Positions 3,459-6,684 of a stretch of DNA of 64,000 nucleotides are shown in pieces (positions within the stretch are counted from its first letter, which is position 1; the number at the start of each line of letters is the position of its first letter). Both the position numbers and the translations under genes were made by a program. The notes under the pieces were generated by a model, which saw nothing but the letters and a program-made list of their open reading frames with translations, ran no database searches and was not told where the DNA came from. This stretch comes from an uncultured Anaeroplasma sp. (GTDB lineage: Bacteria; Bacillota_I; Bacilli_A; Acholeplasmatales; Anaeroplasmataceae), in NCBI GenBank assembly GCA_945919465.1, contig CAMEJG010000007.1, positions 1,099 through 65,098 of the forward strand. The letters run 5' to 3'.

Positions 3459-4841
3459 TTAAGGTTCAACATTAGTTTCATTATAATGATTTTCTAATAC
3501 AATATTTGGAGCCTCATGAACATTTGTAAAGCGTTCCTCATCATAATCTGTTTTAACTGGTTTCTCATTTTTATAACTAGCTCTTAATATTAATGGTGTA
3601 ACAAAGCTTGAAACAATAATCATTATTACAATAAATACACTTAAACCACTATCAACTAATCCAGCATTCATACCCTTTGTAGCACAAATTAATGCTACCT
3701 CAGCTCTTGCCATCATACCTACTCCAATTCTTAATGAATCCTTCCAAGAATTGCCTGTAATTTTAGCACCAATGCCACAACCAAATACTTTTCCAGCTAA
3801 TCCTGCTAAAATGAAACAACAACCAAAGCCTATTAAGGCTGGATTAAAGGCACTAAAATCTATATTTAATCCTACATTTGCAAAGAATAATGGAGAAAAT
3901 AGCATATATGATAATACATCGCTTTTTCTTTCAATATAATCTGTTGTATCATTATTTAATGGTTCTACAGTAGGATTTATATGTCTACCTATACCTGCTA
4001 GTGCGAGTCCTGCAAAATAAGCACCTGTGATTTCAGCTATACCGAATAATGTTTCACTAGCCCAAGCCATTACAAAGCAGAAGGCAAGACCAAATAAAGG
4101 AATTCTTCTAGTATGAGGTCTTTTTTTATTTAGATGCTTGAAATAACAATGCATTAAAATTCCAATACCAATAACAAAAATAAAGAATAATACTACATCT
4201 AATATTACCGCAAGTATTCCTAATGATTCATTATTACCAGTAATTAAAGAACCAATAGTATTTGATGCTGAAGAAACACCGCTTAAGGATAAAACAATTG
4301 ACAATACTACAACACCGATAATATCATCTAATATTGCTGCACTTATTATTATAGTACCTACTTTACCACTTAGTCTATTCATTTCCTTTAATGTGGCAAC
4401 AGTAACTGAAACAGAGGTTGCAGTTAATATTACTCCATAAAATAAATTTGAATGTATATTTTCAAATCCATTAAATAATCCTGCAACTAAAGAGCCTAAA
4501 CCCATAGGTATGATAACACCTAATAAGGTCACAATAATTGATGATTTTCCAGATGATTTGATGGTATTAAGATTAGTACCTAAACCAGCAGAAAACATTA
4601 TTAAAACAACACCAATTTCAGCTAAGAATTTAATTCCAGCTCTTGCTGAATCACTTAATATAAAATCTCCTAAATATGGAATAAATTTAATTAATCCAAT
4701 AAGCACTCCTGCCATTAACATACCAACTACTTGAGGTAGCTTAATCTTTTTACAGCCTAACATTAATAGCTTTGATAGAACTAAAATTAAAGCTACAGGG
4801 AGTAGTAAATCTAATACATCTATGCTAAGATTTAAAAACAT
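3459..4841 (-). CDS. Cation:proton antiporter, CPA2 family (NapA/GerN-like)
   Basis: Many TM helices; motifs LAEIGVVLIMFSAGL, ATSVSVT, AAILDDIIG and GVGMMARAEVALI. Confidence 0.9.
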   Translation of the reverse strand: MFLNLSIDVLDLLLPVALILVLSKLLMLGCKKIKLPQVVGMLMAGVLIGLIKFIPYLGDFILSDSARAGIKFLAEIGVVLIMFSAGLGTNLNTIKSSGKSSIIVTLLGVIIPMGLGSLVAGLFNGFENIHSNLFYGVILTATSVSVTVATLKEMNRLSGKVGTIIISAAILDDIIGVVVLSIVLSLSGVSSASNTIGSLITGNNESLGILAVILDVVLFFIFVIGIGILMHCYFKHLNKKRPHTRRIPLFGLAFCFVMAWASETLFGIAEITGAYFAGLALAGIGRHINPTVEPLNNDTTDYIERKSDVLSYMLFSPLFFANVGLNIDFSAFNPALIGFGCCFILAGLAGKVFGCGIGAKITGNSWKDSLRIGVGMMARAEVALICATKGMNAGLVDSGLSVFIVIMIIVSSFVTPLILRASYKNEKPVKTDYDEERFTNVHEAPNIVLENHYNETNVEP

Positions 4842-4934
4842 TTCTATAATCCCCCTTTTAAACCAACGCTAATAATTATAGCACTATTTTTTTTCTTTTC
4901 AATATTTTATAATTTAATAAAAATAACTAAAAAA

Positions 4935-4989
4935 TGTAAATGCTTACAAAACTAATTATCTTGTATTTACAAAATATTTAAATTATAAT
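4935..4989 (+). promoter_or_regulatory. sigmaA promoter of the mgtE leader with an upstream cre-like palindrome
   Basis: TTGTAT (4961-4966)-N17-TATAAT (4984-4989). TGTAAATGCTTACA at 4935-4948 resembles the CcpA/LacI cre consensus. Confidence 0.55.
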
Positions 4990-5011
4990 AAATTGAGAAG
5001 GATGTGGTTAT

Positions 5012-5083
5012 ATGATACCATCGGAATGTAGTAGTATAAAAATAAAATCTGAATATCCATATAATCACATGGATATTCTCTAG
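5012..5083 (+). CDS. Putative 23-aa leader peptide (MIPSECSSIKIKSEYPYNHMDIL) upstream of mgtE
   Basis: SD-like AAGGATG ends 7 nt before the ATG at 5012. The TAG stop abuts the mgtE SD, and the ORF spans two alternative hairpins. Confidence 0.55.
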   Translation: MIPSECSSIKIKSEYPYNHMDIL

Positions 5084-5096
5084 GAAGGAGAATATT
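5051..5096 (+). promoter_or_regulatory. Alternative hairpins (anti-anti-SD and anti-SD) controlling the mgtE RBS
   Basis: Stem A: GAATATCCAT 5051-5060 pairs with ATGGATATTC 5069-5078. Stem B: ATATTCTC 5073-5080 pairs with GAGAATAT 5088-5095 and encloses the SD. The stems share 5073-5078. Confidence 0.65.
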
Positions 5097-5098
5097 AT

Positions 5099-6490
5099 AT
5101 GCAAAACGATTTCTATCAAGAAATTAAGGCTCTTATTTTAGATAAAAATATTTCTAATTTAGAGTTACTTAATCAGCTTGAAAACTATCACGATAGTGAT
5201 ATTGCCGATGTTTTAGAGGATTTAACAAAGGAAGAAAGATTAAATCTATATCAAAAAATTGGTGTTGAAAAAACCTCAGATATATTTGAATTCTATGAGA
5301 ATGTAGAAGAATATATTGATGAACTAGAACCTGAATTTGCAGCAGATATAGTTGAAAGAATGGACTCTGATGATGCGGTTGAGATTCTTAATGAACTAGA
5401 AGAAGAGGACAAAGAAGAAATTATCAAACTAATGGAGCCTGAATCAAAAAATGAGGTTTTAAAGCTTGATAAATATGATGAGGATGTAATTGGTTCTTAT
5501 ATGTCTGATAATTACATTCTTATTGATTCAAATCAAACTATAAAAGAAGCAATGTCTACTTTAATAAAAATGGCAGGGATTCATGATAATATTTCAACAT
5601 TATATGTTGAAGATGAAAATAAGAAATTTTTTGGTGCTATTAGTCTTAATGATTTAATAGTTGCTAGAAAGGATGATAAACTAATAGATTTAGTAATGAC
5701 ATCCTATCCTTCATTTTATGATGATGAATTAATTGATGATTGCATTGAAAAATTAAAGGACTATGCTGAGGCATCAATACCAGTATTAAATAGAAATAAT
5801 GAAATAATAGGAGTTATTACTTCTGATAATGTTATCGATGCTACTGAAGATGTAATGGAAGATGATTATGCTAAGCTCGGTGGTTTAAGTGAGGCTGAAG
5901 AATTAGATGAATCAATTTTTACATCAGTTAAAAAGCGTATTCCCTGGCTAATATTATTACTATTTTTAGGATTTGTTGTATCAACTGTAACTGGTATTTT
6001 TGAAAGTGTAATTGCTGTAATTCCAGTTGTAGTATTTTTCCAATCAATGGTATTAGATATGGCAGGTAATGTTGGTACTCAGTCACTTGCTGTAACTATT
6101 AGAAGCTTATCACAAACTGATGATCCAAATGAGAAGAAAAAACATAGAAAAACTATATTTAAAGAGTTTAGAGTAGGAATAACAAATGCATTAATTGTAT
6201 CCATTATTGCATTTATATTTATTTTTGTTTATTTATCAATTAAGCAGCAAGCTATTGCTTCTGATACTTTTAATATCTTTGAGGCATTAAAGGTTACATC
6301 TATTATTTCTGGAAGCTTATTAGTAGCAATGACATTATCTAGTTTAATAGGTACAGTATTCCCTATTTTCTTAAATGCAATTCATATCGATCCTGCAGTT
6401 GCATCAGGTCCCTTTATTACTACAATTAATGATATTATAGCTATTGTAATATATTATGGATTAGTATATTTATTATTTATATTAGTTTAG
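5099..6490 (+). CDS. mgtE: Magnesium transporter MgtE
   Basis: Acidic N-domain, CBS pair, KRIPWL, MAGNVGTQS and DPAVASGPFITTINDI motifs. Confidence 0.96.
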   Translation: MQNDFYQEIKALILDKNISNLELLNQLENYHDSDIADVLEDLTKEERLNLYQKIGVEKTSDIFEFYENVEEYIDELEPEFAADIVERMDSDDAVEILNELEEEDKEEIIKLMEPESKNEVLKLDKYDEDVIGSYMSDNYILIDSNQTIKEAMSTLIKMAGIHDNISTLYVEDENKKFFGAISLNDLIVARKDDKLIDLVMTSYPSFYDDELIDDCIEKLKDYAEASIPVLNRNNEIIGVITSDNVIDATEDVMEDDYAKLGGLSEAEELDESIFTSVKKRIPWLILLLFLGFVVSTVTGIFESVIAVIPVVVFFQSMVLDMAGNVGTQSLAVTIRSLSQTDDPNEKKKHRKTIFKEFRVGITNALIVSIIAFIFIFVYLSIKQQAIASDTFNIFEALKVTSIISGSLLVAMTLSSLIGTVFPIFLNAIHIDPAVASGPFITTINDIIAIVIYYGLVYLLFILV

Positions 6491-6498
6491 GAGCTTAT

Positions 6499-6684
6499 AT
6501 GGAGAATTTGCCACCAGAGATGTTATTATGCATTATTAATACTAAATTAAGAGATTTTTATTCTTCTTTAGATGAATTATGTGATGATTTAGATTATAAT
6601 AAAAATTTTATTAATGAAAAGCTTAATAGTATTAATTATTTTTACAATATAGAATTAAATCAATTTATTTTTATGGAAAAGTAG
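6499..6684 (+). CDS. DUF4250 family small protein
   Basis: The pattern MLLCIINTKLRDFYSSLDELCDDLD matches this family. Confidence 0.8.
   Translation: MENLPPEMLLCIINTKLRDFYSSLDELCDDLDYNKNFINEKLNSINYFYNIELNQFIFMEK

What the first reader, a model, noticed from the sequence alone, without database searches (positions are those of the whole stretch)
4995..5101. Candidate new leader-peptide translational attenuator controlling mgtE
Seen: a clean sigmaA promoter, then an SD and a 23-codon uORF (5012-5083, Pro at codons 3 and 16) whose TAG touches the mgtE SD. Two perfect, mutually exclusive stems follow. Stem A (5051-5060/5069-5078, 10 bp) frees the SD; stem B (5073-5080/5088-5095, 8 bp plus a G.U pair) buries it. 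No M-box riboswitch sequence is recognisable. Established: Firmicute mgtE genes are often controlled by the M-box, and Salmonella mgtA uses the Pro-rich leader MgtL, where ribosome stalling senses low Mg2+. Inference: a ribosome slowed early in the uORF at low Mg2+ would let stem A form and switch mgtE translation on, while transit into 5051-5060 would favour stem B. I do not recognise this architecture for mgtE in this lineage.
Basis: partly seen in the sequence, partly recalled or inferred. Interest (0 to 1): 0.8.

Follow-up and report, generated by a model that had tools for sequence, protein, structure and literature searches.

The report
Conserved uORF switch upstream of mgtE
The Mg2+ channel gene mgtE of this gut Anaeroplasma-like bacterium has no M-box riboswitch; instead it is preceded by a short, evolutionarily conserved leader ORF set in three competing RNA helices that hide both ribosome-binding sites, an arrangement not previously described for mgtE.

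Summary

Comparison with about 10 diverged lineages (17 sequences, MgtE 54-100% identical) shows a real conserved element at 4995-5101.
- The uORF is always present. Its variable part changes length only in multiples of 3 and has no in-frame stop.
It has the best covariation. It buries the uORF start codon and leaves the uORF's long SD exposed at the 5' end.
- The predicted ground state in every lineage is P1 plus stem B, with both start sites masked.
- Stem A has only modest support, and it excludes stem B in only about half of the lineages.
- Pro3 and Pro16 are not conserved. An acidic residue at codon 2 or 5 is common.

Most likely reading: translation of the uORF gates translation of mgtE, in the manner of Salmonella mgtQ-mgtB and MgtL. 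Mg2+ as the signal is inferred, not shown.

A different conserved uORF (MDSCDS...) precedes mgtE in Lachnospiraceae, which also lack an M-box.

Verdict: new variant of a known kind.

The parts
4961..4966 (+). -35-like hexamer TTGTAT
   Evidence: Sequence. It lies 17 nt upstream of TATAAT. CTTGTAT is conserved in L001, L092, L088, L091, L111, L152 and L094.
4984..4989 (+). -10 hexamer TATAAT. It predicts a transcription start around 4995-4997, at or just before the uORF SD.
   Evidence: Sequence. In every lineage a TATAAT lies 6-22 nt upstream of GAAAGGA. RNA contigs reach upstream only to 5024, so the start site is not mapped.
4996..5009 (+). Extended SD of the uORF: AGAAGGATGTGGTT in the window, consensus GAAAGGA[T/A]GTG[G/A]TT. 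The 5' half is predicted unpaired and the 3' half lies in P1.
   Evidence: Invariant across 17 sequences. Unpaired probability is 0.85-0.96 for 4997-5001. Its complementarity to the 16S 3' tail rests on textbook knowledge and was not tested here.
5002..5017 (+). Region 1, the 5' arm of helix P1. It contains the uORF start codon (5012-5014).
   Evidence: MFE structure. Covariation: UA/AU, GU/AU/GC and AU/UG/GC/CG at three pairs.
5012..5083 (+). Leader ORF (uORF) of 23 codons, MIPSECSSIKIKSEYPYNHMDIL*
   Evidence: It is present in all 17 relatives. Its variable segment is 36, 33, 30, 27, 24 or 21 nt, always a multiple of 3, with 0 in-frame stops against 0-6 in each of the other two frames.
5055..5070 (+). 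Region 2, the 3' arm of P1. It overlaps the 5' arm and the loop of stem A and contains AATCAC.
5051..5078 (+). Stem A hairpin (5051-5060 with 5069-5078, 8-nt loop). It pairs region 2 with region 3 and so holds the anti-SD.
   Evidence: Sequence. -11.7 kcal/mol. Two compensatory changes, 84.5% of cells paired. It forms when region 1 is masked.
5072..5081 (+). Region 3, the anti-SD GATATTCTCT and 5' arm of stem B.
   Evidence: ATTCTCT is conserved.
5084..5096 (+). mgtE SD (GAAGGAG) and the 3' arm of stem B (5087-5096).
   Evidence: Unpaired probability of GGAG is <=0.05 at equilibrium.
5099..6490 (+). mgtE, the regulated gene (463 aa; MgtE_N, CBS and MgtE domains).
   Evidence: Metatranscriptome contigs run from the leader into the gene.

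Best explanation
Positions 4995-5101 are a cis-acting mRNA leader that makes translation of mgtE depend on translation of a short upstream ORF.

Shown by sequence and comparison:
- The transcript probably starts at or just before a long SD-like sequence (GAAAGGAxGUGRUU). Its 5' half is unpaired.
- The 3' half of that sequence, together with the uORF AUG (region 1), pairs with region 2 to form helix P1.
- The mgtE SD (region 4) pairs with an anti-SD (region 3) to form stem B.
- P1 plus B is the predicted ground state in all lineages, so both start sites are masked.

Inferred:
- A 30S subunit that captures the exposed SD and melts P1 starts uORF translation. Region 2 is then released and can pair with region 3 (stem A), which frees the mgtE SD while the ribosome sits on the first codons.
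- In all but one of the 11 lineages tested, a ribosome that reaches the last 5-8 uORF codons also unwinds stem B. In the window it terminates 15 nt before the mgtE AUG, so mgtE can initiate.
- Once ribosomes leave, the leader relaxes back to P1 plus B.

Most likely input signal (inference by analogy): the Mg2+-dependent behaviour of the ribosome on the acidic, small-residue N-terminus of the uORF, as in Salmonella mgtQ-mgtB and E. coli/Salmonella MgtL-mgtA. Low Mg2+ would prolong occupancy of region 1, or favour its opening, and raise MgtE synthesis.
For: Conservation: the leader is conserved while the rest of the intergenic region diverges. Seventeen sequences from about 10 lineages (MgtE 54-100% identical) carry it directly upstream of mgtE, in different gene neighbourhoods.

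uORF coding signal: the distance from the ATG to GAATATCCA is always a multiple of 3 across six length classes. Frame 0 has no stops, while each of the other two frames has 0-6. The product of the per-lineage shuffle probabilities of an open frame is about 1e-4.

Structure:
- Every sequence folds into P1 plus B.
- For P1 plus B, 85.6% of cells are paired against 78.3% in shuffles; 18 cells show a change on both sides against 7.9; 0/500 shuffles reach the observed value; slid controls give 40-55%.
- Stem A keeps pairing through compensatory changes and forms when region 1 is masked.

Other:
- There is no terminator on the + strand, so control is translational.
- No Rfam family matches. None matches upstream of mgtE in 40 related loci either.
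- The leader is co-transcribed with mgtE in three metatranscriptomes.
- Codon 2 is D or E in 8 of 10 lineages, against 9 of 41 long ORFs in the window. The window's own uORF has Glu5.
- The mgtQ precedent has the same 1:2 / 2:3 / 3:4 logic and needs Asp2 and Glu5 (PMC8092293). MgtL and N-terminal DE/P-dependent ribosome destabilisation respond to low Mg2+ (bioRxiv 10.1101/2021.02.02.429294).
Against: - No experiment or ribosome-profiling data exist for this organism.
- The transcription start is not mapped. RNA contigs stop at 5024, 5040 and 5057.
- Stem A has weak covariation (2 cells; 35/500 shuffles reach its covariation score). It does not exclude a shortened stem B in L094, L295, L150 and L099, nor in L305, so the stem A route is not universal.
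- The conserved peptide core (EYP..H, DIL) coincides with the helix arms. A 1-nt insertion in L094 changes the C-terminal peptide but not the RNA. Peptide-specific stalling is therefore unsupported.
- L088 (MPSNHK...) has no acidic residue near its N-terminus.
- If N-terminal acidic residues made the ribosome drop off rather than dwell, region 1 would be freed and P1 would re-form. That gives the wrong sign for Mg2+ homeostasis.
- A 13-16 bp P1 helix is too stable to sense physiological Mg2+ changes on its own.
Confidence: 0.6

Rival explanations
1. Constitutive translational coupling or damping. The uORF and the two masking helices only set a low, fixed level of MgtE, a channel that is harmful if overproduced, by making mgtE initiation depend on an inefficiently initiated uORF. 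No signal is sensed.
For: The ground state masks both start sites. The route to SD opening seen in 10 of the 11 lineages tested is the ribosome reaching the end of the uORF. The uORF stop lies 15-33 nt before the mgtE ATG in most lineages. MgtE itself is gated by cytosolic Mg2+ through its N and CBS domains (established knowledge; the domains are present), so expression control may not be needed.
Against: Simple coupling does not need stem A, yet stem A is kept through compensatory changes. It also does not need the enrichment of D/E at codon 2. In L305 the uORF stops well before the anti-SD, so the ribosome cannot unwind B directly. Mg2+ transporter genes are regulated by Mg2+ in every well-studied case (PMC9276622, PMC8092293).
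Confidence: 0.2
2. A trans-acting factor (an RNA-binding protein or a small RNA) binds the conserved single-stranded or helical parts of the leader and sets the P1/A/B balance. The uORF would be only a helper.
For: There are strongly conserved nucleotides outside what pairing strictly needs: CCATCGGAATGT without a single synonymous change in six sequences, and a recurrent TCGAA in the loop. A conserved cre-like palindrome upstream shows that the locus has other regulatory inputs.
Against: No candidate regulator gene is conserved next to mgtE, apart from a small DUF4250 protein that is present in only some neighbourhoods. The loop between the P1 arms varies in sequence and length.
Confidence: 0.1
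3. A ligand- or metal-binding riboswitch whose aptamer happens to contain an ORF.
For: The leader is highly structured (z = -4.1) and sits where the M-box sits in other Firmicutes.
Against: No Rfam hit even at E<=10. There is no conserved unpaired core. The large P1 loop varies freely in sequence and changes length only in steps of 3 nt, with an open frame. That is a coding signature, not an aptamer signature.
Confidence: 0.05
4. Chance: an AT-rich intergenic region that happens to contain an ORF and hairpins.
For: In DNA of about 25% GC, short ORFs and A/T hairpins are common.
Against: Conservation across about 10 lineages, covariation, frame-preserving indels and the folding z-score.
Confidence: 0.02

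Closest known systems
Salmonella mgtQ-mgtB translational attenuator (Choi et al. 2021, mBio, PMC8092293)
   Same: A short ORF precedes a Mg2+ transporter gene. The transporter's RBS is sequestered by an anti-RBS hairpin (3:4). An alternative 2:3 hairpin captures the anti-RBS when a ribosome occupies region 1. Control is at the level of translation. Acidic residues near the N-terminus matter: Asp2 and Glu5 in mgtQ; here Glu5 in the window and D/E at codon 2 in most relatives.
   Different: There is no sequence homology. The transporter family differs (MgtE channel against MgtB P-type ATPase), as does the phylum (Mollicutes/Bacillota against Enterobacteria). The element is a 5' leader, not an intra-operon spacer. 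The uORF is 19-26 codons, not 8. Here region 1 includes the uORF's own spacer and start codon, so the uORF is itself masked by P1. The uORF also runs through regions 2 and 3 and stops next to the mgtE SD.
MgtL leader of mgtA (E. coli/Salmonella); Rfam Mg_sensor
   Same: A leader peptide upstream of a Mg2+ importer. Ribosome behaviour on an N-terminal acidic/proline stretch selects between alternative RNA structures. Low Mg2+ turns the system ON.
   Different: MgtL controls Rho-dependent transcription termination, not SD masking. Its EPDP motif and proline codons are not conserved here. There is no Rfam match.
M-box (ykoK) riboswitch, the classical mgtE regulator in Bacillus and Clostridium
   Same: It occupies the same genomic position (5' leader of mgtE) and is presumed to serve the same physiological purpose.
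   Different: The M-box is a roughly 160-nt metal-binding aptamer that controls an intrinsic terminator. Here there is no aptamer match and no terminator, the leader is only about 105 nt, and a translated ORF is present.
Classical leader-peptide attenuators (trpL, ermCL type)
   Same: Four-region logic (1:2 and 3:4 against 2:3) read out by the position of the ribosome on a leader ORF. ermC likewise unmasks a downstream SD.
   Different: There are no regulatory codon runs for an amino acid, no known arrest motif and no antibiotic link. Region 1 includes the leader's own initiation site.

Membership tests
M-box / ykoK riboswitch (RF00380) | Match to the covariance model (three-helix Mg2+-binding aptamer) | tested here: not met
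   No hit at gathering threshold in the window and none at E<=10 in 4800-5200. No hit upstream of mgtE in 40 related loci.
M-box / ykoK riboswitch (RF00380) | Intrinsic terminator expression platform | tested here: not met
   No + strand terminator between the promoter and mgtE. The sequence after stem B is AUAUGCAAAACG.
MgtL / Mg_sensor leader of mgtA | Sequence and structure match to the Rfam Mg_sensor model; leader peptide with an EPDP or proline-rich motif | tested here: not met
   No Rfam hit. The uORF peptides lack EPDP, and Pro3 and Pro16 are not conserved.
MgtL / Mg_sensor leader of mgtA | Rho-dependent termination as the output | not testable with these tools
   The architecture (an SD-masking hairpin 3 nt from the start codon) points to translational output. 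The role of Rho cannot be assessed computationally.
uORF-dependent RBS-unmasking switch (mgtQ type) | Short ORF with its own SD immediately upstream of the regulated gene | tested here: met
   uORF 5012-5083 with SD 4997-5002. It is conserved with a coding signature.
uORF-dependent RBS-unmasking switch (mgtQ type) | RBS of the downstream gene sequestered by an anti-RBS hairpin (3:4) | tested here: met
   Stem B is in the MFE fold of all 17 sequences. 81% of cells are paired, with covariation at the outer pairs.
uORF-dependent RBS-unmasking switch (mgtQ type) | Alternative 2:3 hairpin that captures the anti-RBS and is mutually exclusive with 3:4 | tested here: inconclusive
   Met in the window and in 12 of 17 sequences. 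In L094, L295, L150, L099 and L305 a shortened B coexists with A. Covariation for stem A is modest.
uORF-dependent RBS-unmasking switch (mgtQ type) | Region 1, overlapped by the uORF, pairs with region 2 | tested here: met
   P1 (5002-5017 with 5055-5070) has the strongest covariation and is present in all MFE folds.
uORF-dependent RBS-unmasking switch (mgtQ type) | Ribosome-destabilising acidic codons near the uORF N-terminus are required | tested here: inconclusive
   D/E at codon 2 in 8 of 10 lineages. The window sub-clade has Glu5. L088 has none. Whether they are required cannot be tested here.
uORF-dependent RBS-unmasking switch (mgtQ type) | Output responds to Mg2+ | not testable with these tools
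   Needs reporter assays or in vitro translation over a Mg2+ gradient.
Leader-peptide transcription attenuator (trpL type) | Intrinsic terminator (3:4) followed by a U-run | tested here: not met
   One search finds no + strand terminator. Stem B has no U-tract. By contrast, the Lachnospiraceae mgtE leaders do carry a hairpin followed by a U-run.

The most novel reading that the evidence does not exclude
The window's leader is one representative of a broad, undescribed class. In this class the M-box is replaced by ribosome-mediated Mg2+ sensing at mgtE across Mollicutes and Clostridia. Short uORFs with acidic, small-residue N-termini (ME.., MD.., MIPSEC here; MDSCDS.. in Lachnospiraceae) would act as intrinsic ribosome-destabilisation or occupancy sensors. 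They would be wired to SD-masking hairpins in Anaeroplasmataceae and relatives, and to intrinsic terminators in Lachnospiraceae. In the window type there would be an extra feature: region 2 (..AUCAC..) mimics the 16S rRNA 3' tail, so that the 30S subunit opens P1 by toehold-like strand displacement from the exposed 5'-terminal SD.
Probability: 0.3. Interest if true: 0.85.

Novelty: new variant of a known kind. Interest (0 to 1): 0.7.

Why it matters
How mgtE is controlled in the many bacteria that lack the M-box is an open question; a 2022 review only notes that the M-box is absent in some species (PMC9276622). This leader gives a concrete, testable answer for a gut Mollicute clade.

It would also extend ribosome-based leader-peptide control of Mg2+ transporters, so far known for enterobacterial mgtA, mgtB and corA, to the MgtE channel family and to Bacillota/Mollicutes.

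The element is small (about 105 nt) and has clear predicted ON and OFF states, so reporter and in vitro translation tests are straightforward. The parallel Lachnospiraceae uORF suggests that the principle is widespread in abundant gut bacteria.

Tried and rejected
Hypotheses tested and rejected:
- M-box or any other Rfam family: rejected.
- Transcription attenuator: rejected, because there is no + strand terminator. The only terminator-like hit is stem A read on the minus strand followed by the complement of the A-rich uORF segment. No minus-strand gene ends there, and the Na+/H+ exchanger has its own strong promoter at 4902-4875.
- Riboswitch aptamer: rejected, because the P1 loop is variable and changes length only in steps of 3 nt.
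- The alternative ATG at 5002: rejected, because it is absent in lineages that have GGAAGTG.
- A second copy of the element in the window: none found (CM R1).

Searches that went wrong or were limited:
- Pattern scan was mis-specified. I set the SD-to-ATG gap to 3-5 nt, but many members have 2. It still found L111, L118, L149, L150 and L152.
It found no new members of this family, but it did pick up four Lachnospiraceae mgtE loci with uORFs.
- The metagenome scan added only L293 and L295.
- Alignment A4 used wrong minus-strand coordinates for three loci and was discarded. A5 replaced it. MAFFT misaligns the ATG region in A5, so only the outer 10 pairs of P1 were counted.

Data that were not informative enough:
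- RNA data consist of Logan contigs only. They cannot map the transcription start.
- The first ribosome-position scan allowed helices to close around a bound ribosome. It was replaced.
- L304, L306, L307 and L009-L013 (MgtE 50-62% identical) lack the element, so its distribution is patchy.
Full report
WHAT IS THERE

The window is DNA of about 25% GC. Its closest named relative in the genome collection is a MAG labelled Anaeroplasma sp., with MgtE 97% identical. The same DNA occurs in pig and bovine gut metagenomes.

mgtE (5099-6490; MgtE_N, CBS and MgtE domains) is transcribed divergently from a Na+/H+ exchanger gene (3459-4841, minus strand). It is followed by a small DUF4250 gene and an Fe-alcohol dehydrogenase gene.

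- TTGTAT, 17 nt, then TATAAT (4961-4989).
- SD GAAGGA (4997-5002).
- A 23-codon ORF, 5012-5083 (MIPSECSSIKIKSEYPYNHMDIL). Its TAG overlaps the first G of the mgtE SD, GGAAGGAG.
- Stem A, 5051-5060 with 5069-5078, 10 perfect pairs.
- Stem B, 5073-5080 with 5088-5095, 8 perfect pairs. G.U pairs at each end extend it to 5072-5081 / 5087-5096.

No Rfam family matches, either at gathering thresholds or at E<=10 with permissive filters over 4800-5200. The M-box is therefore excluded.

The leader folds much better than shuffled sequence (-27.8 against -16.1 +/- 2.9 kcal/mol, z = -4.1). The minimum-energy structure is not stem A. It is a long-range helix, which I call P1 (5002-5017 with 5055-5070), together with stem B.

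P1 pairs the spacer and start codon of the uORF with the distal part of stem A's 5' arm, its loop, and the first two bases of its 3' arm. The leader therefore has four regions:
- Region 1: 5002-5017.
- Region 2: about 5051-5070.
- Region 3: 5069-5081, the anti-SD.
- Region 4: 5087-5096, the mgtE SD.

The 1:2 helix (P1) and the 3:4 helix (B) are compatible with each other. Both exclude the 2:3 helix (A).

Energies of the individual helices are P1 -12.3, A -11.7 and B -10.1 kcal/mol. At equilibrium P1 and B are each more than 99% formed and stem A is at 0.04%. The uORF SD is 85-96% unpaired. The uORF AUG and the GGAG of the mgtE SD are no more than 5% unpaired.

COMPARATIVE EVIDENCE

I collected mgtE loci by three routes: protein similarity, exact-protein look-ups in ENA and Logan assemblies, and DNA pattern scans.

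Seventeen distinct sequences from about ten lineages carry the same leader directly upstream of mgtE. Their MgtE proteins are 54-100% identical to the window's. The MAGs are labelled Anaeroplasma, Anaeroplasmataceae, Acholeplasmatales or Mollicutes. There are also unlabelled contigs, one of them with the sporulation genes cotE and ytfJ next door.

The gene neighbourhood differs between lineages: Na+/H+ exchanger, secE-nusG, ftsW, a glycosyl hydrolase, or asparagine synthase. The leader therefore travels with mgtE.

In syntenic relatives the leader is conserved while the rest of the intergenic region diverges.

Other relatives at 50-62% MgtE identity lack the leader. The covariance model built from the alignment finds only one copy in the window (92 bits). 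None of the 40 related mgtE loci scanned has an M-box.

IS THE uORF TRANSLATED?

Every member has an ATG 2-4 nt after GAAAGGA[T/A]GTG[G/A]TT and an ORF of 19-26 codons.

The segment between the ATG and the conserved GAATATCCA is not alignable between lineages. Its length is 36, 33, 30, 27, 24 or 21 nt, always a multiple of three. It never has an in-frame stop, while each of the other two frames has 0-6 stops. The product of the per-lineage probabilities that a shuffled segment stays open is about 1e-4. An RNA helix has no reason to keep its loop length at a multiple of three, so this is a coding signature.

The peptide itself is not strongly constrained:
- The core EYP(S/Y/P)NH and the C-terminal DIL coincide with the arms of stems A and B and of P1.
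- Pro16 becomes Ser in L088 and Leu in L152 through exactly the base changes that are compensated on the other arm of stem A.
- A 1-nt insertion in the stem A loop of L094 shifts the frame, so its C-terminus is LEPLGYSSKK, yet the nucleotides stay conserved.
- Pro3 exists only in the window's sub-clade.

What recurs is an acidic residue at codon 2 (8 of 10 lineages: ME.. or MD..). The window's sub-clade has Glu at codon 5, and L088 has no acidic residue near its N-terminus. The background in the window is 9 of 41 long ORFs.

STRUCTURE SUPPORT

All 17 sequences fold into P1 plus B.

On alignment A5, the outer 10 pairs of P1 together with stem B give:
- 85.6% standard pairs, against 78.3% in column shuffles.
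- 18 cells with a change on both sides, against 7.9 expected.
- 0 of 500 shuffles reaching the observed value.
- Slid registers drop to 40-55%.

P1 pairs show UA/AU, GU/AU/GC and AU/UG/GC/CG exchanges.

Stem A is mostly invariant. It has two independent compensatory changes, 84.5% of cells paired, 8/500 shuffles for pairing and 35/500 for covariation. The L008 group uses a shifted 6-bp version, GGATCA with TGATCC.

Support is therefore strong for P1, good for B and modest for A.

HOW IT PROBABLY WORKS

There is no + strand terminator, and stem B ends 3 nt before the mgtE AUG. The output is therefore translation initiation.

When region 1 is masked, as by an initiating ribosome, stem A forms and the mgtE SD is freed in 12 of 17 sequences.

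I then scanned ribosome positions while forbidding helices that would enclose the ribosome. Three phases appear:
- Ribosome on the first 5-9 codons. The SD is mostly open in L152, L088, L095 and L008, and partly open in the window and L111. It is only weakly open in L094, L295, L150, L099 and L305.
- Ribosome in the middle of the uORF. Its leading edge is in stem A's 5' arm, and the SD is closed by B.
- Ribosome on the last 5-8 codons. The anti-SD is covered and the SD is open in all lineages except L305, whose uORF stops early.

The feature shared by nearly all lineages is that B can be opened only through uORF translation. The stem A route adds an 'early occupancy' ON state in about half of the lineages.

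After the ribosomes leave, the leader should relax to P1 plus B. That state also blocks new uORF initiation, apart from the exposed SD.

I also note that GAAAGGAxGUGAU is almost fully complementary to the canonical 16S 3' tail, and that region 2 contains AUCAC or GGAUCAC, the same letters as that tail. A 30S subunit bound to the exposed half could therefore displace region 2. This rests on textbook 16S sequence, not on a test here.

SIGNAL

The closest precedent is Salmonella mgtQ-mgtB. There a ribosome on region 1 lets 2:3 form, which releases the mgtB RBS from 3:4, and Asp2 and Glu5 are required (PMC8092293).

N-terminal D/E/P-rich sequences with small neighbouring residues destabilise the ribosome, more so at low Mg2+. 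MgtL uses this to induce mgtA (bioRxiv 10.1101/2021.02.02.429294).

By analogy I propose that Mg2+ acts through ribosome behaviour on the uORF N-terminus. This is inference. Its sign also depends on whether the ribosome dwells (ON) or drops off (P1 re-forms, OFF). A constitutive coupling device is the main rival.

EXPRESSION DATA

Metatranscriptome contigs from three independent runs start at 5024, 5040 and 5057 and continue into mgtE. None covers 4842-5023. The leader is therefore co-transcribed with mgtE, but the transcription start is not resolved.

BROADER CONTEXT FOUND ON THE WAY

Among 80 clostridial mgtE loci, about 18 (mostly Lachnospiraceae) carry a different conserved uORF. It begins MDSCDS(H/Y)GRS, MDGCDSYGQ, MDKSDSHGRL or MDGHDSP, and starts 140-205 nt upstream of mgtE.
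- Its third codon positions vary more than the first and second (entropy 1.04 against 0.62 and 0.58).
- In several of these loci it is followed by a hairpin plus a U-run, that is, a transcription attenuator.
- One member of the window's family (L095) begins MDSCH.., which hints at common ancestry.

Four Lachnospiraceae loci with a distant MgtE (26% identity) have acidic/Ser/Pro-rich uORFs that overlap the mgtE start.

NOVELTY

No paper in the searchable library describes a leader peptide of either type upstream of mgtE. M. abscessus mgtE has an M-box plus an unrelated uORF. A 2022 review only states that some mgtE genes lack the M-box.

VERDICT

It works like the mgtQ and MgtL class but shares no sequence with them. 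It controls a different transporter family in a different phylum, and it has its own twist: the uORF's start site is part of the switch. I rate it a new variant of a known kind, with interest 0.7.

Noticed in passing
L027, L029, L034, L036, L054, L062-L064, L075-L077, L080, L083-L086 (140-205 nt upstream of mgtE): A conserved uORF (MDSCDS[H/Y]GRS.., MDGCDSYGQ.., MDKSDSHGRL.., MDGHDSP..) precedes mgtE in many Lachnospiraceae/Clostridia. Its third codon positions are the most variable. In several loci it is followed by a hairpin plus a U-run, which looks like a transcription attenuator. There is no Rfam match. It appears undescribed and may be related to the window's leader, since L095's uORF starts MDSCH.
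   Followed up: partly
L196, L222, L226, L257: Lachnospiraceae loci with a distant MgtE (26% identity) have strong-SD uORFs: MESSGHEPENPNPRLF.., MSDISSDSPHPPQF.., MISSDSTVPRR.., MSENSISDSSHPRSQ... The uORFs overlap the mgtE start. Their acidic/Ser/Pro-rich N-termini recall MgtL ([17 protein letters not shown]).
   Followed up: partly
window 4935-4948: The palindrome TGTAAATGCTTACA (TGTAA-N4-TTACA) differs from the catabolite-responsive cre consensus at one central position. It lies 13 nt upstream of the mgtE -35, in the divergent promoter region. It is conserved in L001, L092, L088 and L091, and with small changes in L111 and L152, while its flanks diverge. It is possibly an operator for a LacI/CcpA-type regulator of mgtE or of the Na+/H+ exchanger.
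   Followed up: no
window 6499-6684; L088, L091, L092, L097: A small DUF4250 gene (59-61 aa) follows mgtE directly in the syntenic relatives, 0-10 nt after the mgtE stop. It may be a functional partner of this MgtE subfamily.
   Followed up: no
L091 3001-5775; L097/L098/L152: Some relatives carry two tandem mgtE paralogues (461 and 458-459 aa, 9-nt spacer). The leader precedes only the first.
   Followed up: no
window 5078-5040 (minus strand): The terminator scan reports stem A plus a T-run on the minus strand. No minus-strand gene ends there. It is the mirror image of stem A and the A-rich uORF segment, and is most likely an artefact.
   Followed up: yes
L141 and L151 (Peptostreptococcaceae): A similar SD (AAAGGATGTGGTT / AAAGGATGTGATT), a 12-13-codon uORF and an ATTCTCTTATATT...AAAGGAGAATAT anti-SD:SD hairpin precede an RtcB-like gene (PDIHQG motif). 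The CM scores are weak (24-26 bits). This may be convergent use of the same SD-masking design.
   Followed up: no
window 5018-5029 and relatives: CCATCGGAATGT (codons PSEC) shows no synonymous change in six sequences whose MgtE proteins are 67-100% identical to the window's. A TCGAA motif recurs in the otherwise variable uORF segment of other lineages. The nucleotide-level constraint is unexplained.
   Followed up: no
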